A DNA stretch of 64,000 bases from an uncultured Gammaproteobacteria bacterium (lineage in GTDB: Bacteria > Pseudomonadota > Gammaproteobacteria > DRLM01). A program made the translations under genes and the position numbers. The stretch is from assembly GCA_963729605.1 (NCBI GenBank), contig CAVSNY010000007.1, positions 192,001 to 256,000 of the forward strand, in the 5' to 3' direction. Each line of letters begins with the position of its first letter. The first letter of the stretch is position 1. Below are positions 3,796-57,838 of this stretch, in pieces. The notes beneath the pieces are model-generated. The model worked only from the letters and a program-made list of their open reading frames with translations. It made no database searches and had not been told where the DNA came from.

Positions 3796-4254
3796 ATGTA
3801 TTTCCGAAAGTTCGCTTTTGCGATGCTGACTTTAGCGCTGGCGCCGATGGCCCAAGCCGATTCAGGGGATAATGACAGCGGGCATGCGCCGTCACGGGGT
3901 CCGATATCGGTTTGTTTGAATGCTTCAATCACGTTATATCCGTGCTTGTCGCTTACCCCGTCTTTATCACCCGCTTTAAGTGGGACATCTTCATACGACG
4001 GCGCCCCGCTGCGTGGCCAACCCGAGGCCTCTACTCATCTTTTCACTTTTTCGATCAAGCACCGCGATCCCGCCAGCCTCCACTGGAGTAGCTTGCGCCG
4101 ATTCGATGGGGTGGACCTTAACTTCAATCTGGACCCTACCGGCGCCGGGATGAACATGGATATGGGCGGTTTGGAATTCAACGTCATCTTGGATGAAGGG
4201 GAAGATACCCTGATAGAGCCGCGCTTTTTCCTCGGGATTGATAGGGCCTGGTAA
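3796..4254 (+). CDS. Secreted or outer-membrane hypothetical protein
   Basis: Signal-peptide-like N-terminus (LALAPMAQA), C-terminal aromatic residue (..GIDRAW), RBS GAGG. Confidence 0.55.
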   Translation: MYFRKFAFAMLTLALAPMAQADSGDNDSGHAPSRGPISVCLNASITLYPCLSLTPSLSPALSGTSSYDGAPLRGQPEASTHLFTFSIKHRDPASLHWSSLRRFDGVDLNFNLDPTGAGMNMDMGGLEFNVILDEGEDTLIEPRFFLGIDRAW

Positions 4255-4345
4255 ATCCGCTTTATTTCCGTAGCGGCTTTTAATGAAAACCGGCGTGGGA
4301 CCGGACCGGGGCGGCCGGCGCATCGGATGATGCGGACCGATGAGA

Positions 4346-5518
4346 TCAGCCGAGGGGTTTTTTATCCTGGCCCCCGAACCAGCGTTCCAGCCATATATCC
4401 ACCGCGCCCCAAAACTGCTCCGGCACTCGCCGGTACCAAGGCCGGTTTTTCCAATGTACTAATAGATATTCCTTGCTGTCGGCGAAGTCGTCATTGAGCA
4501 TGGCGCGCACCTCGGCGGCGAACCCCTCATCGGCGATTTCCTGATTGGCTTCCAGGTTCCAGCGCATGGTCCAGCGGTCGATGTTGCTGGAGCCGATACT
4601 CACCCATTCGTCGCATAGCAGGACCTTGGAATGGGTGAAGCGCGGCTGATATTCGAAGATACGCACGCCGTGCCGCAGCAGCCGGTAATAAAACCGCCGG
4701 CCGGCGTGGCGTACCGCCGGGTGATCGCTGTGTGGTCCCGGCAGCAGCAGCCGTACCTCCACGCCGCGCCGCGCCGCGCGGATCAAGGCCCGCCGCAGTT
4801 TGATGGGGGGTACGAAGTAGGCGGTGGCGAGCCACACCCGGCGGGCCGCCCCCCGCACCCGGTTGAGGGCACTGCGTTGGATCTCCGGATAAGCGATGCC
4901 GCGGGTATAACAGACCCTGCCGAATTGCGCACCCGCGCCGACGGGCGGGATGACCGGCGGGTTCAACCCTCCACGCGCGTGACGCCGCCAGGTCTGGACG
5001 AACAAATTTTGCCAGTCCGTTACCACCGGCCCGGCGATGGCGACGACGGTCTCCCGCCAAGGCGGCTGATCGAGGCGGACCGGCGCGAACTCATCGGTGA
5101 GGCCCATGCCGCCGACGTAGGCGCGGACGCCGTCGATCAAAAGCAACTTGCGGTGGTCGCGAAAAAAATTGCGGCGCAAGCGTCCATAGTGGAGACGGTT
5201 GAAATACGCGACCCGGATTCCGTCGGCGCCGAGCCGTTCGCGGTCCGGTCGTTTCAAACCCCGCGAGCCGAAATCGTCCAACAACAGATAAACGGCCACG
5301 CCGCGCGCGGCGGCCTCGCAAAACGCCGTAATGAATTGGTCGGCGACCTGCCCGGATTCGATGAGATACATTTCCAGCAACACGAAGGAGCGGGCCGCGC
5401 CGATGGCCTCCAACATGGCCGGGAAAAACGCGCCGCCGTCGATGAGTAACTCGAAGCGGTTGCCGTCGCGCCAAGGAAAGGTGGGGGTGTCGCTGCTCGC
5501 GCTCGGCGTGGGAGGCAT
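4346..5518 (-). CDS. clsB: Cardiolipin synthase B-type phospholipase D
   Basis: Two HKD motifs (HRKLLLID, HSKVLLCD), no N-terminal TM pair. Confidence 0.85.
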   Translation of the reverse strand: MPPTPSASSDTPTFPWRDGNRFELLIDGGAFFPAMLEAIGAARSFVLLEMYLIESGQVADQFITAFCEAAARGVAVYLLLDDFGSRGLKRPDRERLGADGIRVAYFNRLHYGRLRRNFFRDHRKLLLIDGVRAYVGGMGLTDEFAPVRLDQPPWRETVVAIAGPVVTDWQNLFVQTWRRHARGGLNPPVIPPVGAGAQFGRVCYTRGIAYPEIQRSALNRVRGAARRVWLATAYFVPPIKLRRALIRAARRGVEVRLLLPGPHSDHPAVRHAGRRFYYRLLRHGVRIFEYQPRFTHSKVLLCDEWVSIGSSNIDRWTMRWNLEANQEIADEGFAAEVRAMLNDDFADSKEYLLVHWKNRPWYRRVPEQFWGAVDIWLERWFGGQDKKPLG

Positions 5519-47480: not shown

Positions 47481-47555
47481 TGGGGTGTCGCCAAGCGGTA
47501 AGGCACTGGATTTTGATTCCAGCATCCCCAGGTTCGAATCCTGGCACCCCAGCCA
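47481..47555 (+). tRNA. tRNA-Gln(TTG)
   Basis: Cloverleaf TGGGGTG...CACCCCA-GCCA, anticodon loop TTTTGAT, GGTTCGAATCC. Confidence 0.97.
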
Positions 47556-51304: not shown

Positions 51305-51381
51305 GGCTACGTAGCTCAGCTGGTTAGAGCGCGGCACTCATAATGCTGAGGTCGGTGGTTCGAGTCCACCCGTAGCCACCA
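51305..51381 (+). tRNA. tRNA-Met(CAT), elongator type
   Basis: GGCTACG...CGTAGCC-ACCA, anticodon loop CTCATAA. Confidence 0.96.
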
Positions 51382-51920: not shown

Positions 51921-52145
51921 CTAGCCCCGCGTGAGTGCCATGATCTCCTCGGTGCTCATGCGCTTGTTCCCTTTGCCGCGCATAAGGCTGACCAGGCGCT
52001 TGCCGCGCCGGCCCGGCTGCTCGGCCTTGCGCAACACGACCGTACCGCCGCGCATAACGAACTCCACCTCTGTGTCCGGGAGCAGCCCAGCCTTCTCTCG
52101 AATCTCGGCAGGAATGGTGACTTGACCCTTGCTGGTGATACGCAT
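51921..52145 (-). CDS. AbrB/MazE family antitoxin
   Basis: MRITSKGQVTIPAEIR; directly upstream of the PIN gene. Confidence 0.92.
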   Translation of the reverse strand: MRITSKGQVTIPAEIREKAGLLPDTEVEFVMRGGTVVLRKAEQPGRRGKRLVSLMRGKGNKRMSTEEIMALTRG

Positions 52146-54807: not shown

Positions 54808-55623
54808 ATGCAAATATTAGTTACCCTGAAAGAATATCAGATCTTGCGCGTGGCCTTGCAAACCGGCGTGCCGCATGTCGAGTGTTCGCTGGACTTGGGC
54901 CGATCCATGACGCGCGTTGAGGTGGCCGATGAGGGCTGGTGTTGGCAAGGCCGATGGTTTCCCTATCTCGAGAGTTGTAACGACAGGACCATCTATTATT
55001 GGGATGGCGAGTCGTTTCAACCGGTGTCGCGTTACACCACGTCCTTGATCAAATTGGTGCCGACTGACTGGGGGGCGCCGACCTTCGAGATCGACGGCAT
55101 CAAAATGCTGCCCACGGCACAACTCTCTCCTTACACCGACGCCGAACGCAAGGTGGCGTTGATACAACCGCGCGGCAAGCTGATATTGGACACCTGCGGC
55201 GGCCTCGGTTATTTCGCCGCCTGGTGCGTGCGCGGCCTGGCCCGGCGGGTGCTGTCTTTTGAAAAGAATCCCGACGTGGTGTGGTTGCGGGATTTAAATC
55301 CCTGGTCGCCGAAGGTGGACGAGGTGTTGAGTTTGACGGTGGGCGATATCGTCGAGCAGATCGTCTCGCTGCCCGATGGTTCGGTCGATGCCATCTTGCA
55401 CGACCCGCCGCGTTTCGGCATCGCCGGCGAACTTTACTCGCAGGTCTTTTACAATCAGTTCGCCCGGGTGCTGCGTCGCAAAGGCAAACTGTTTCATTAC
55501 ACGGGTGCGCCCAACAAATTGACCAGCGGCCGCGACGTGCCCAACGAAGTGGCGAAACGTTTGCGCCGCGCCGGTTTCGTCACGGAGTTGAACGGCGACG
55601 GCGTGCTGGCGGTGAAAAGTTAA
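54808..55623 (+). CDS. SAM-dependent methyltransferase
   Basis: PTFEIDGIKM, LDTCGGLGY, ILHDPPRF..AGELYS, LFHYTG. Confidence 0.9.
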   Translation: MQILVTLKEYQILRVALQTGVPHVECSLDLGRSMTRVEVADEGWCWQGRWFPYLESCNDRTIYYWDGESFQPVSRYTTSLIKLVPTDWGAPTFEIDGIKMLPTAQLSPYTDAERKVALIQPRGKLILDTCGGLGYFAAWCVRGLARRVLSFEKNPDVVWLRDLNPWSPKVDEVLSLTVGDIVEQIVSLPDGSVDAILHDPPRFGIAGELYSQVFYNQFARVLRRKGKLFHYTGAPNKLTSGRDVPNEVAKRLRRAGFVTELNGDGVLAVKS

Positions 55624-55834
55624 GCCGCACTGGCGCCGCGGCGAAGTTATGCGGCCGATCACCGCCCGCGGGTTCACGGTCCTTTTTGAAAGATCGAGTG
55701 GCCCGGCACGCCGGCCTCGCTTGTTCGACATCGAAGAATCTTTCGAATACATCGCTTGTCCGCTCGTGGCGAAGGGCGAAGATGAAAGAAGTGTTCTGCG
55801 GAGTGAGGATGATCATCCGGGCGCCCTCACCCCT

Positions 55835-56347
55835 GCCCTCTCCCGCTCGCGGGAGAGGGAGGAATCCGTCACGCTGACCGTGGCGCCCGTGATATTGCCT
55901 CTCCCGCGCGCGAGGGAGGAATGATTTTGCGAGGTACGAGAAAATTACGGACCAGTCTCTCCCGCGCGCGCGGGAGGAATGGGATGGAATCATTGCGTGT
56001 GCAGGCCGGCGCTGTCTCTCCCGCTCGCGCGAGCGAGGAATGGTGGTGGTCGTTCCGTCCGTTTCGGGTCATGCGCCTCTCCCACTCGTGTGCGCGGGAG
56101 GAATAATGCAGCGGTTCGACAAGAACATTCATGCCGAGCCTCTCGCCCGCGGGAGAGGAGAGAAATCATCGCCCAGGCGGGCGTCGATTTTCCGCTGAGC
56201 CTCCGGCTCGCGGGAGAGAGGGAAGTTGATCGGTTCATCCCCACGCATGTGGGGAACGAGCCTCCCGCGTGCGGGAGAGAGAAGAAATTACTTCCGCAGC
56301 TTCATCATCAGTTCGAACGAGCCTCCGGCTCGCGGGAGAGAGGGAAT
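55835..56347. CRISPR. Orphan CRISPR-like array: 9 divergent REP-derived hairpin repeats and 8 unique spacers (non-canonical, no cas genes nearby)
   Basis: Repeats start at 55835, 55897, 55955, 56014, 56075, 56136, 56197, 56258, 56319 (26-31 bp, CTC(T)CCGC..GCGGGAG core, GAAT/AAAT/AAGT end); spacers 30-33 bp and mutually unrelated. Confidence 0.65.
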
Positions 56348-56463
56348 AATAATGCTCAGCCTGGTATTCCAGTGTTGCGTTAGGTTGCCCATCGTGGACG
56401 GGTTCCAGCTGGGATGCCCCGGCGTCGCTGGCCCGCGACGCCGATGCTGGGATACCATAACCC

Positions 56464-56733
56464 ATGGCCAGGGTCGTCTTCACCGATAACTTGCAGCGGC
56501 TCGTCGCTTGCCCGCCCGTGGAGACGGACGGCGGCAGCTTGCGCGAGGTGCTGGACGCGGCATTCCGGAAACATGCGCGGGTACGGACTTATGTGCTCGA
56601 CGAGCAAGGCGCCATTCGTAAACACGTCGCGGTGTTCATCGACGGCGTCCTGGTCCAAGATCGTCAAACCTTGACGGATCCGGTGTCGCCCACGGCGCAG
56701 GTGTACGTCATGCAAGCCTTGTCGGGAGGATGA
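56464..56733 (+). CDS. MoaD/ThiS family ubiquitin-like protein
   Basis: 89 aa beta-grasp pattern, YVLDEQG..RKHV, C-terminal ALSGG. Confidence 0.92.
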   Translation: MARVVFTDNLQRLVACPPVETDGGSLREVLDAAFRKHARVRTYVLDEQGAIRKHVAVFIDGVLVQDRQTLTDPVSPTAQVYVMQALSGG

Positions 56734-56737
56734 TTTC

Positions 56738-57838
56738 ATGTCGAATCGCTTATTGGCGGGGACGCGGAAGGGATTGTTCGTTTTTAATATGGATGACCGG
56801 CACGCGACCTTGAGCGCCACCCATTTTCTCGGCGAGCCCGCGACGGCGGTGCTGCCGGTGAGCGATACGGAGTGGTACGTGTCCTTGGGACACGGCCACT
56901 TCGGCGCCAAACTGCATTACACCGACGACGCGGGCGCGAGCTTCCGTGAAATCGCGTCGCCCGCCTATCCGCCCAAGCCGGAAGGCCTGGAGGATCTCGA
57001 CCCCATGCGTAAGCAGCCCATCCCGTGGGCCGTGCAGCAGAACTGGATACTCGAGGCCGGCGGCGCGGCGGGTGAGCTGTGGTGCGGCACCATACCCGGC
57101 GGCCTGTTCCGCTCCGCCGACCGCGGCGCTTCGTGGCAATTCATGGACGCCTTGTGGAATCAGCCGGCGCGCGCCAAGTGGTTCGGCGGCGGTTACGATT
57201 ATCCGGGCATCCATTCCATTTGCGTCGATCCGCGCGACGCGGCGACGGTGACGGTCGCCGTGTCCTGCGGCGGTCTGTGGCGGACCACGGATCGCGGCCA
57301 GACCTGGAGTTCGCACGGCCGCGGCATGCGCGCCGCGTATATGCCGCCGGAGTTGGCCGGCGATGCCGAGATTCAAGACCCGCATCGCATGGTGCAGTGT
57401 CCGGGCGCGCCGTCGCATTTTTGGATACAGCATCACAACGGCATCTTTCGCTCCACGAACGACGCGGTCGATTGGAGCGAGCGGCACGGCACGCCGTCCA
57501 GCTTCGGCTTCGCGGTGGCGGTCCATCCGCGCGACCCCGACATCGCCTGGTTCGTACCGGCCCAGCAAGACGTCTGCCGCGTGCCGGTGGCGGGCCGCTT
57601 CGGCGTGATGCGCACCCGCGACGGCGGCGACTCGTTCCACTTGTTGACCGAGGGCTTGCCCGACGCGCCGGCCTATCATCTGGTGTATCGTCACGGACTG
57701 GATGTCGACGGCGCCGGCGACACCTTGGCCATGGGTTCCACCACCGGCAGCTTGTGGCTGGGCCGCGACGGCGGCGAGCGTTGGAGCCGGGTCAGCGCCG
57801 AACTGCCCCCTATCAATACCGTTCGCTTCTGCCGCTAG
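56738..57838 (+). CDS. BNR/Asp-box beta-propeller (sialidase-like) protein
   Basis: GTRKGL start; repeated S/TxDxGxSW boxes; QHHNG. Confidence 0.9.
   Translation: MSNRLLAGTRKGLFVFNMDDRHATLSATHFLGEPATAVLPVSDTEWYVSLGHGHFGAKLHYTDDAGASFREIASPAYPPKPEGLEDLDPMRKQPIPWAVQQNWILEAGGAAGELWCGTIPGGLFRSADRGASWQFMDALWNQPARAKWFGGGYDYPGIHSICVDPRDAATVTVAVSCGGLWRTTDRGQTWSSHGRGMRAAYMPPELAGDAEIQDPHRMVQCPGAPSHFWIQHHNGIFRSTNDAVDWSERHGTPSSFGFAVAVHPRDPDIAWFVPAQQDVCRVPVAGRFGVMRTRDGGDSFHLLTEGLPDAPAYHLVYRHGLDVDGAGDTLAMGSTTGSLWLGRDGGERWSRVSAELPPINTVRFCR

What the first reader, a model, noticed from the sequence alone, without database searches (positions are those of the whole stretch)
55835..56347. Cas-free CRISPR-like array apparently grown out of a REP-type palindrome
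Seen: nine hairpin repeats alternate with eight unrelated spacers of 31, 32, 33, 33, 31, 30, 31 and 30 bp. The period is 58-63 bp and exactly 61 bp across units 6-9. Unit 1 is the tail of a REP-like element (CCCTCACCCCTGCCCTCTCCCGCTCGCGGGAGAGGGA). No cas gene or AT-rich leader is in the window; neighbours are a methyltransferase and a ThiS/BNR pair. Known: REP/BIME clusters usually have conserved linkers, whereas constant-length unique spacers are the mark of measured DNA capture; type I-E arrays have a 61 bp period. Unit 3 plus the next 3 nt (GTCT-CTCCCGC-GCGC-GCGGGAG-GAATGGG) has the same 4/7/4/7/7 geometry as a type I-E repeat. Inference: either a neo-CRISPR array made by in-trans Cas1-Cas2 integration at a REP hairpin, or a guide/memory array of an undescribed system that tolerates divergent repeats. 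CRISPR finders would probably miss it because the repeats differ.
Basis: partly seen in the sequence, partly recalled or inferred. Interest (0 to 1): 0.93.

Follow-up and report, generated by a model that had tools for sequence, protein, structure and literature searches.

The report
CRISPR-like array grown from a REP hairpin
One copy of a common palindromic repeat element has been stretched into nine repeats separated by eight unrelated 31-33 base inserts, in steps that look like CRISPR spacer capture although no matching cas genes lie nearby, so it may show how new CRISPR-type arrays begin.

Summary
The array is real: nine copies of a degenerate hairpin-derived repeat and eight mutually unrelated 31-33 nt spacers, period about 61. 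It is one copy of a dispersed REP-type element whose single hairpin was expanded internally. The left end plus unit 1, and unit 9 plus the right end, align to the dispersed element; inner units align only over the hairpin. At least four sibling clusters exist in the genome.

The best-defined gains are a 28-nt repeat duplication plus a 33-nt insert, total 61. Spacers are unique in the genome and show coding-like 3-nt periodicity. Spacer 7 is an exact type I-E CRISPR repeat. Related environmental populations carry 7-, 8- and 9-unit forms, and one close relative lacks the whole element.

The genome has I-F, I-C and a third Cas1, but no I-E genes were found.

My best reading (0.42) is off-target Cas1-Cas2 integration at a REP hairpin. 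A Cas-independent REP/BIME expansion is nearly as likely (0.36). There is no support for a new guide system. Most REP clusters elsewhere are plain tandem duplications.

The parts
55659..56408 (+). About 750-nt segment holding the whole element. It is present here and absent in a close relative.
   Evidence: X2 record 9 (3175 nt, about 96-98% identical in the flanks) joins 55658 directly to 56427. The 13 letters between equal 56409-56421. The non-array parts are unique in the genome, and the only shared feature is a 7-nt repeat near both ends.
55795..55836 (+). Conserved left end of the REP-type basic element, including the CCCTCAC tail.
   Evidence: BLAST hits to C7:419195, C6:157355, C4:311654 and others; profile positions 8-80 align at E=2.9e-18.
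55837..55865 (+). Repeat unit 1, the canonical perfect REP hairpin.
   Evidence: reference copy; z=-3.87.
55898..55926 (+). Repeat unit 2, with a decayed stem.
   Evidence: 79% identity; z=0.24; a CG insertion polymorphism behind 55904.
55956..55983 (+). Repeat unit 3, a good hairpin.
   Evidence: z=-3.21.
56015..56044 (+). Repeat unit 4, decayed.
   Evidence: z=-0.46.
56076..56104 (+). Repeat unit 5, decayed, with an enlarged loop.
   Evidence: 83% identity; z=0.08.
56136..56165 (+). Repeat unit 6.
   Evidence: families D1 and D2; z=-0.99.
56197..56224 (+). Repeat unit 7, 28 nt, identical to unit 9.
   Evidence: family D2: 100% identity between 56197-56224 and 56319-56346.
56225..56257 (+). 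Spacer 7, a 33-nt insert. Positions 56230-56258 are an exact type I-E-style CRISPR repeat.
   Evidence: 83-93% identity to sequences present 20-40 times per plasmid record; the Thermus plasmid match lies beside an annotated I-E cas operon; 0 differences to repeats recurring about every 61 nt in X3 and X20 contigs; 61-nt arrays in 7 of 400 other genomes of the class.
56258..56287 (+). Repeat unit 8, a perfect 7-bp stem that differs from units 7 and 9 in the loop and tail.
   Evidence: z=-1.63. Unit 8 is absent, together with spacer 8, in an X1 variant (joint 56254 to 56316, skipping 61).
56319..56346 (+). Repeat unit 9, identical to unit 7.
   Evidence: family D2; joint 56220 to 56345 (skipping 124) in an X1 variant.
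56343..56385 (+). Diverged right end of the REP-type basic element.
   Evidence: unit 9 plus this flank align to profile positions 50-120 at E=7.8e-6.
56167..56197 (+). Spacer 6, with a 29-of-31 match inside a chromosomal gene of another genome of the class.
   Evidence: G287, E=5.6e-6 per genome; the match lies in an NTP_transf_5 ORF. It may be a codon-usage coincidence.

Best explanation
The locus is one copy of a dispersed REP-type element (conserved left end, one palindromic hairpin, conserved right end). Its hairpin was serially expanded by steps that each duplicated about 28 nt of the repeat and inserted about 33 nt of unrelated DNA.

The most likely agent is a CRISPR adaptation integrase (Cas1-Cas2) acting off-target, with the REP hairpin serving as a pseudo-repeat. 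The candidates are the resident type I-F module, or a type I-E module that was present earlier or supplied on a mobile element. On this reading the array is a by-product, a 'neo-CRISPR' scar. Nothing maintains it, so its repeats decay, slip at CG runs, and recombine or delete in unit steps.

Shown: the anatomy, the uniqueness and coding-like nature of the spacers, the I-E-repeat spacer, the 61-nt quantum and the unit polymorphism.

Inferred: that Cas1-Cas2 did it, which subtype, and the direction of growth.
For: 1. One element expanded internally. The left end plus u1 align to the dispersed element at E=2.9e-18, and u9 plus the right end at E=7.8e-6. Inner units match only the hairpin.
2. A before/after case. 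In an 8-copy, roughly 330-nt composite element, one copy gained 175 nt (units of 61, 61 and 53) at hairpin 1 and 59 nt at hairpin 2. All of it is new sequence.
3. Geometry. u7 and u9 are identical over exactly 28 nt. The 33 nt that follow u7 (spacer 7) are the step missing from the 7-unit form. The u8/sp8 step is also 61 nt. E. coli I-E adds 61 bp per spacer (PMC11788318, passage read). The split into a 28-bp duplication and a 33-bp insert is my recollection only.
4. Spacers are mutually unrelated. They have no significant match in the own genome or in 4 near relatives.
5. Nineteen non-duplicate spacers from 5 clusters have 3-nt GC periodicity of 0.333. Coding sets give 0.316+/-0.029. Non-ORF sets give 0.228+/-0.028 and their own shuffles 0.231+/-0.025; 0 of 400 sets of either kind reach the observed value.
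6. Spacer 7 is an exact I-E-type repeat plus 4 nt.
7. Nested 7-, 8- and 9-unit forms differ at the right end in related populations.
8. G000 is the only 1 of 12 genomes of its order with an I-F Cas1, and the only one with such clusters. G003 and G005 carry 17 and 27 strict REP copies but no clusters.
9. Elsewhere, 61 of 79 clusters of this hairpin are plain tandem duplications. Only 1 of 25 clusters with at least 4 units has all-unrelated spacers, so this pattern is not the usual REP behaviour.
Against: - No I-E genes were found. Cas6e and Cse1 give 0 hits in the own genome. Cas6e gives 0 of 12 in the order, but that search also missed the E. coli control. I-E Cas1 above cut-off gives 0 of 12, and there the E. 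coli control did ring.
- The resident I-F array is 28+32=60 in 281 of 294 spacers, and 33 nt in only 9. The exact 61-nt steps therefore fit I-F poorly.
- Adjacent repeats are only 69-83% identical, and six of nine stems have decayed.
- u8 differs from the identical u7 and u9. In the C4:40.7k copy, identical outer hairpins flank different inner ones. Serial single-spacer integration does not predict this.
- Neither flank scores as a sigma-70-type promoter. I did not test either flank for a CRISPR leader or for AT content.
- The unit variants have 11-nt microhomology and can equally be deletions.
- Only spacer 7 has a clear donor. There is no significant phage or plasmid match for the other spacers.
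- A 61-nt array with mostly unrelated 32-nt spacers exists in a Methylobacterium genome in which no Cas1 was found.
- The order-level co-occurrence with I-F rests on a single genome.
Confidence: 0.42

Rival explanations
1. Cas-independent REP/BIME-type cluster. The hairpin family expands by its own biology: hairpin-stalled replication with template switching, REP-to-REP recombination or strand transfer by a tyrosine HUH transposase, import of REP-flanked segments by recombination, then unit loss by slippage. The roughly 60-nt spacing would be intrinsic to this REP family, and the likeness to CRISPR would be coincidental.
For: - The hairpin is a dispersed family: 151 perfect-stem family-A copies and 48 strict copies. 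Copy number varies in relatives: 5 of 12 genomes of the order have it.
- Spacing of about 56-66 nt between paired hairpins recurs in the genome and in Mitsuaria, Cupriavidus and E. coli.
- Clusters of at least 3 units are widespread: 80 loci, which is the reporting cap.
- Block duplication inside the C7:419k cluster is demonstrated, with 84-94% identical copies.
- Multi-unit inserts flanked by identical hairpins fit recombination better than spacer integration.
- Evenly spaced REP arrays, and REP dimers with variable spacers of the same length, are in print (PMC3116915 and PMC3733652, passages read).
- No I-E genes were found.
- The neighbours are unrelated housekeeping genes.
Against: - No donor was found for any spacer in the genome or near relatives.
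- Spacers look like coding DNA, not intergenic DNA, whereas REP-flanked donors would be intergenic.
- Exact 28+33=61 steps need a ruler that no known REP mechanism provides.
- A spacer that is an exact I-E CRISPR repeat is unexplained.
- The only RAYT-like gene (C7:5-565) is flanked by a different palindrome.
- Spacers are not unusually structured: mean z is -0.29 without spacer 7, against -0.12 for 80 real I-F spacers.
- 61 of 79 clusters elsewhere have repeated linkers, unlike this one.
Confidence: 0.36
2. Decayed orphan CRISPR array of a lost (I-E-like) system, whose repeat merely resembles the REP hairpin. On this reading it was once a working array.
For: - The 61-nt period and 31-33-nt unique spacers.
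- The Methylobacterium locus L059 looks like such a decayed orphan: its repeat occurs only at that locus, 10 of 15 spacers are 32 nt, and no Cas1 was found.
- I-E arrays with the spacer-7 repeat exist in the class.
Against: - Both ends of the array are the ends of the dispersed REP element, and u1 is a canonical REP copy.
- There are at least four sibling clusters at other REP copies.
- Rfam gives no CRISPR-DR match at E below 0.6.
- The real I-E repeat sits in a spacer position, not a repeat position.
Confidence: 0.07
3. REP hairpins inserted repeatedly, at measured distances, into a pre-existing gene remnant. The spacers would then be consecutive pieces of old local coding sequence.
For: - The spacers have coding-like periodicity.
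- The segment is an indel relative to a close relative.
Against: - In the composite-element copy the spacers are demonstrably added sequence, not pre-existing.
- Spacer 7 is a CRISPR repeat, not coding sequence.
- Nine independent, evenly spaced insertions have no known mechanism.
- Strand and frame continuity could not be resolved.
Confidence: 0.05
4. Guide or memory array of an undescribed, Cas-unrelated system that tolerates divergent repeats.
For: Only the array-like anatomy and the presence of several arrays in one genome.
Against: - Five clusters share no neighbouring gene family.
- Six of nine repeats have lost the hairpin.
- No promoter-like site was found.
- The clusters are expansions of an ordinary REP element.
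Confidence: 0.03

Closest known systems
REP / BIME clusters (repetitive extragenic palindromes; REPIN doublets)
   Same: - A dispersed, extragenic, imperfect palindrome with a CCCTCAC-type tail.
- Copy number varies between related genomes.
- It forms doublets and clusters and inverted REPIN-like pairs.
- Evenly spaced arrays, and dimers with variable spacers of the same length, are described (PMC3116915 and PMC3733652, passages read).
   Different: - The linkers are unique and coding-like rather than conserved.
- 61 of 79 clusters of this hairpin in other genomes have repeated linkers.
- Units here are head-to-tail.
- Gain steps are exactly 61 nt, as 28 + 33.
- No RAYT gene is flanked by this hairpin.
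Type I-E CRISPR arrays and their adaptation step
   Same: - A 61-nt period; E. coli gains 61 bp per spacer (PMC11788318, passage read).
- A G+C-rich 6-7-bp stem in the repeat.
- Unique 31-33-nt spacers.
- One spacer is itself an exact I-E repeat.
   Different: - Repeats are 69-83% identical, not near-identical.
- No I-E cas genes were found.
- No Rfam CRISPR-DR match.
- The array lies inside a REP element.
Off-target ('non-canonical') Cas1-Cas2 integration, Nivala et al. 2018
   Same: The idea that the integrase can duplicate a repeat-like genomic site and insert a spacer there, seeding a new array. That is the footprint seen at u7-sp7-u9.
   Different: - It is known from over-expression in E. 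coli. I saw only how other papers cite it (PMC11788318 and PMC6698737, passages); the paper itself is not held.
- Here there would be up to eight successive events at one site, and at least four further sites.
- Some inserts span several units.
Neisseria intergenic mosaic elements (dRS3 repeats interleaved with other segments)
   Same: Arrays of a short palindromic repeat interleaved with variable segments and not Cas-related. PMC3733652 (passage read) notes that clustered Neisseria CGTC-1/dRS3 elements are interleaved with other repeat families.
   Different: There the interleaved segments belong to repeat families and vary in length (partly my recollection). Here they are unique and of constant length.

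Membership tests
Canonical CRISPR array | Near-identical direct repeats | tested here: not met
   The 9 copies are 69-83% identical to the reference copy. Only u7 and u9 are identical. Six of nine stems have decayed.
Canonical CRISPR array | Unique spacers of constant length | tested here: met
   Spacers are 31-33 nt and not mutually similar (P=0.52 and 0.71). They are unique in the genome.
Canonical CRISPR array | Adjacent cas genes | tested here: not met
   The Cas1 matches lie at C6:214k, C7:615k and C4:145k, none in the window. The flanking ORFs are a methyltransferase, ThiS-like and BNR. A leader was not tested as such; no sigma-70-like promoter was found in 55400-56800.
Canonical CRISPR array | Spacers matching mobile elements, with a PAM | tested here: inconclusive
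   Only spacer 7 matches, and it matches plasmid-borne I-E repeats in 56 plasmid records. There is no significant phage or plasmid hit for the others. Spacer 6 matches a chromosomal gene at 29 of 31. IMG/VR was not scanned.
Canonical CRISPR array | Polarised gain of units at one end | tested here: inconclusive
   The 7-, 8- and 9-unit forms differ at the right end, but the joints have microhomology and could be deletions.
Canonical CRISPR array | Transcription and processing into unit-length RNAs | not testable with these tools
   Only contigs were available. The RNA run X20 covered only the generic hairpin and the I-E repeat.
Type I-E array | Repeat of the I-E sequence family | tested here: not met
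   The best Rfam CRISPR-DR match has E=0.64 and is an unrelated stretch. Only spacer 7 is an I-E-type repeat.
Type I-E array | 61-nt unit | tested here: met
   Spacing of 61, 61, 61 over units 6-9. The gain or loss step is 61 nt. Units in the C4:40.7k copy are 61, 61, 53 and 59 nt.
Type I-E array | I-E cas genes in the genome | tested here: not met
   PF08798 and PF09481 give 0 hits. TIGR03638 above cut-off gives 0 of 12 in the order, with the E. coli control positive. The genome is 94.5% complete.
REP / BIME | Short imperfect palindrome, many dispersed extragenic copies | tested here: met
   272 motif hairpins with perfect stems, of which 151 are family A. 48 strict copies against 0 in the reversed-pattern control.
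REP / BIME | Occurs as doublets and clusters | tested here: met
   Clusters of 4, 5, 6 and 9 units. 80 loci with at least 3 units in other species.
REP / BIME | Conserved linkers between clustered REPs | tested here: not met
   The linkers are unrelated here. By contrast, 61 of 79 clusters elsewhere have repeated linkers.
REP / BIME | Cognate RAYT transposase flanked by the same REP | tested here: not met
   There is one Y1_Tnp match, at a contig edge. Its 3' flank carries a different palindrome. Its 5' flank is cut off by the contig end.
REPIN | Two REPs in inverted orientation forming one long hairpin | tested here: not met
   Units here are head-to-tail, with the same 3' tail in all units. 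The composite element elsewhere does have an inverted pair.

The most novel reading that the evidence does not exclude
These are natural 'neo-CRISPR' arrays caught in the making. A Cas1-Cas2 integrase took a genomic REP hairpin for a repeat and captured foreign DNA there again and again, including a piece of another organism's I-E array. That would make dispersed REP palindromes a seedbed from which new CRISPR arrays can arise.
Probability: 0.38. Interest if true: 0.85.

Novelty: new variant of a known kind. Interest (0 to 1): 0.62.

Why it matters
How new CRISPR arrays and repeats originate is an open question. REPs and CRISPR repeats have long been noted to look alike, but no natural intermediate is known to me.

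This genome offers one that can be tested:
- A known REP element exists in unexpanded and expanded copies.
- Gain steps have the size of an I-E acquisition.
- Spacers look like captured coding DNA.
- One spacer is a foreign CRISPR repeat.
- Related populations differ by whole units.

If Cas1-Cas2 made it, this is direct natural evidence for de novo array birth, and for off-target integration as a source of genome change. If it did not, an unknown Cas-independent process in bacteria measures out and inserts roughly 33-nt DNA pieces next to palindromes. That would matter for how REP clusters are read and for false calls by CRISPR finders.

Tried and rejected
- Tandem Repeats Finder found nothing.
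- Rfam at gathering threshold found only two tRNAs in the window. At permissive E-values there was no meaningful family for the array or for the composite element.
- Old tandem duplication followed by drift is rejected as the source of the spacers. One copy of an otherwise well-conserved 8-copy element carries wholly new inserts, and the spacers are coding-like.
- Spacers as degenerate element ends is rejected: inner units align to the profile only over the hairpin.
- Structured spacers with complementary ends, as in some REP dimers, are not supported.
- Spacers copied from elsewhere in the genome or from near relatives: none found.
- Phage (INPHARED) and plasmid (PLSDB) searches with the whole array gave only spacer 7, plus a 25-nt hit at E=0.6.
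- The orthologous loci in same-genus genomes G001 and G003 have other neighbours and no array.
- Metagenome scans: the youngest repeat gave 0 contigs. The right flank gave one contig that starts at the array edge.
- Sequencing runs: all holders had small shares (0.18 or less) and all were contigs, so there is no statement on habitat, expression or RNA ends.
- Strand and frame continuity of the spacers could not be resolved, because the periodicity measure is strand-symmetric.
- The spacer 6 match in G287 lies in an ordinary gene with common codons. I treat it as possibly coincidental.
- The TnpB gene about 1.5 kb from the Methylobacterium array I treat as coincidence.
- Not done: structure prediction, complex prediction, protein homology searches and the look-up of encoding contigs were not used. 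Supplements of papers were not opened. Nivala 2018 could not be read.
Full report
**What is there**

Window 55835-56347 (G000 contig C7:247835-248347) holds nine copies of a 28-30-nt repeat built around CTCCCGC..GCGGGAG. They alternate with eight stretches of 31-33 nt.
- One search lists the nine copies at 69-83% identity to the first. The last four are spaced exactly 61, 61, 61.
- Hairpin centres are spaced 61, 58, 60, 61, 60, 62, 61, 61.
- The strict core occurs 3 times in the window against 0.00 in 100 shuffles.
- The spacer cores are not more alike than random genomic 31-mers (P=0.52 for the mean score, 0.71 for the maximum).
- Only u1, u3 and weakly u8 fold better than shuffled sequence. 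The other six stems have decayed.
- The 61-nt period rules out a coding repeat.
- No sigma-70-like promoter is predicted.

**The genome is not Cas-free**

It has four Cas1 matches, typed as I-C, I-F and a generic Cas1 plus a fragment. It also has large true arrays. The I-F array has 295 identical 28-nt repeats and 32-nt spacers in 281 of 294 cases.

No I-E gene was found:
- Cas6e and Cse1 give 0 hits.
- I-E Cas1 above cut-off gives 0 of 12 genomes of the order, with the E. coli control positive.
- Cas6e gives 0 of 12, but that search also missed the E. coli control.

**The repeat is a REP-type family**

- Perfect-stem hairpins with this motif number 272, of which 151 are the CCCTCTCCCGC..GCGGGAGAGGG type.
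- A strict 22-nt pattern gives 48 copies in G000, 17 in G003, 27 in G005, 2 each in G001 and G002, and 0 in the other 7 genomes of the order.
- The same hairpin with its CCCTCAC tail occurs as inverted doublets about 60-66 nt apart in Mitsuaria, Cupriavidus and E. coli.
- The genome's one RAYT-like gene is flanked on its 3' side by a different palindrome.

**Architecture**

Several copies share a conserved left end and a conserved right end around a single hairpin. A profile of nine such dispersed copies aligns as follows:
- the left end plus u1 at E=2.9e-18;
- u9 plus the right flank at E=7.8e-6;
- the inner units only over the hairpin and a few following bases.

The array is therefore one element whose hairpin was multiplied in place.

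Sibling clusters lie at C7:419238 (6 units), C4:311399 (5), C3:214960 (4) and C4:40690-41042. Their neighbours are unrelated housekeeping genes.

**A before/after case**

A composite element of about 330 nt with two hairpins occurs 8 times. In the C4:40.6k copy, hairpin 1 has gained 175 nt (units of 61, 61 and 53) and hairpin 2 has gained 59 nt. All of it is sequence found nowhere else in the genome. Old duplication plus drift therefore cannot explain the spacers. The C7:419k cluster also shows ordinary block duplication, with 84-94% identical copies.

**The spacers**

- None has a significant match in its own genome, in four near relatives, or in phage records.
- In plasmid records and in 400 genomes of the class, only spacer 7 gives clear matches. 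Spacer 6 gives a single 29-of-31 match inside an NTP_transf_5 gene, which may be a codon-usage coincidence.
- Nineteen non-duplicate spacers from five clusters have 3-nt GC periodicity of 0.333. That equals length-matched coding samples (0.316+/-0.029). It is above non-ORF samples (0.228+/-0.028; 0 of 400 sets reach it) and above their own shuffles (0.231+/-0.025; 0 of 400).
- The spacers are not unusually structured.

**Spacer 7**

Positions 56230-56258 match sequences that occur 20-40 times per record on Thermus, Deinococcus, Acidiphilium and other plasmids. On the Thermus JL-18 plasmid the match lies beside an annotated I-E cas operon. The stretch matches with 0 differences a repeat that recurs about every 61 nt in environmental contigs. 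Seven of 400 other genomes of the class carry it, with up to 2 mismatches; six of them as 61-nt arrays and G121 as a single copy. G000 has this one copy only.

**Steps of change**

u7 and u9 are identical over exactly 28 nt, and the 33 nt that follow u7 are spacer 7.

Contigs of related populations in run X1, about 86-91% identical in the flank, lack exactly 61 nt (u8 plus spacer 8; 11-nt microhomology) or 124 nt (from spacer 7 to u9). This gives nested 8- and 7-unit forms. Near-identical strains keep the array. A relative about 97% identical in the flanks lacks the whole 750-nt segment, whose non-array parts are unique in the genome.

E. coli I-E acquisition adds 61 bp per spacer (PMC11788318, passage read). 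That this is a 28-bp duplication plus a 33-bp insert is my recollection only.

**Other genomes**

A three-hairpin pattern found 80 loci, the reporting cap.
- Of the 79 with at least 3 units, 61 have repeated linkers (plain tandem duplication; periods 51-66), 7 are intermediate, and 11 have unrelated linkers.
- Of the 25 with at least 4 units, only one (Methylobacterium oryzae, L059) has all-unrelated spacers.

The L059 repeat occurs only at its own locus. Ten of its 15 spacers are 32 nt, its period is 61, and no Cas1 was found in that genome. It looks like a decayed orphan array rather than a REP cluster.

**Weighing**

For a capture process with CRISPR-adaptation geometry:
- unique, coding-like spacers absent from the genome;
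- exact 28+33 steps;
- a spacer that is a CRISPR repeat;
- unit polymorphism;
- the rarity of this pattern among clusters of the same hairpin;
- G000 being the only genome of its order with an I-F adaptation module and the only one with such clusters (a single case).

Against Cas1-Cas2:
- no I-E genes were found;
- the resident I-F array has a 60-nt unit;
- the repeats are decayed;
- identical outer hairpins flank different inner ones;
- deletion is an equally good reading of the variants;
- literature already describes evenly spaced REP arrays and same-length variable spacers (PMC3116915, PMC3733652; passages read).

I put off-target Cas1-Cas2 integration at 0.42 and a Cas-independent REP process at 0.36. 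The remaining probability goes to a decayed true array, REP invasion of a gene remnant, or something unforeseen.

**Limits**

- All population data are contigs.
- There is no RNA evidence.
- No close isolate genome was available.
- The periodicity test rests on 19 short spacers.
- Nivala et al. 2018 could not be read.

Noticed in passing
G000 C4:40600-41110; C5:174090-174400; C6:188630-189640 (3 copies); C7:54390-54700; C7:293690-294000; C7:992050-992360: A composite element of about 330 nt occurs in 8 well-conserved copies. It holds two inverted REP hairpins 99 nt apart (REPIN-like) and a conserved tail ending in a 'caattttgagataggttcta' box. No Rfam family matches it. It sits near gene starts in several copies.
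   Followed up: partly
G000, genome-wide (e.g. C5:73119-73674, C7:727153-727368): A second hairpin family (CCCCTCCTT..AAGGAGGGG type) has 84 perfect-stem copies, some in clusters at 34- or about 90-nt spacing.
   Followed up: no
G000 C4:153801-171581; C6:198744-209910 and 211213-213384; C7:612497-614354: There are very large true CRISPR arrays: about 295 I-F repeats; 157+31 repeats of a 37-nt type next to an I-C Cas1; and 27 repeats of another 37-nt type next to a generic Cas1.
   Followed up: partly
G000 C7:5-565 (L020): A RAYT-like Y1 transposase gene lies at a contig edge. It is followed by a different palindrome (GGGTGCG..CGCACCC type), which may be the REP family it serves.
   Followed up: partly
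L059 (Methylobacterium oryzae TC3-10 Scaffold_1), about 2020-2280 and 4240-5000: Two orphan 61-nt-period arrays of a related hairpin repeat lie 2 kb apart and share some spacers by segmental duplication. A KfrA_N protein and a TnpB (OrfB_IS605) gene lie within 2 kb. No Cas1 was found in that genome.
   Followed up: partly
L129 (G121:C154:14548-14573): A solitary I-E-type repeat is followed by an AT-rich, leader-like stretch: a one-repeat minimal array.
   Followed up: no
window 47481-47552 and 51305-51378: Two tRNA genes (Rfam). Just downstream, at 51921-52145 (- strand), a 74-aa ORF begins MRITSKGQVTIP. It looks like an AbrB/SpoVT-type antitoxin by eye; this was not tested.
   Followed up: no
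window 55904 and other unit loops: CG-dinucleotide runs in the hairpin loops differ between units and between strains (a CG insertion in X1 contigs). This suggests slippage as a source of repeat decay.
   Followed up: no
window 54808-56733 compared with G001:C79 and G003:C100/C95: The methyltransferase and the ThiS-like/BNR genes are neighbours here and in metagenome relatives, but not in the two same-genus reference genomes. The array therefore sits at a synteny breakpoint within the genus.
   Followed up: partly
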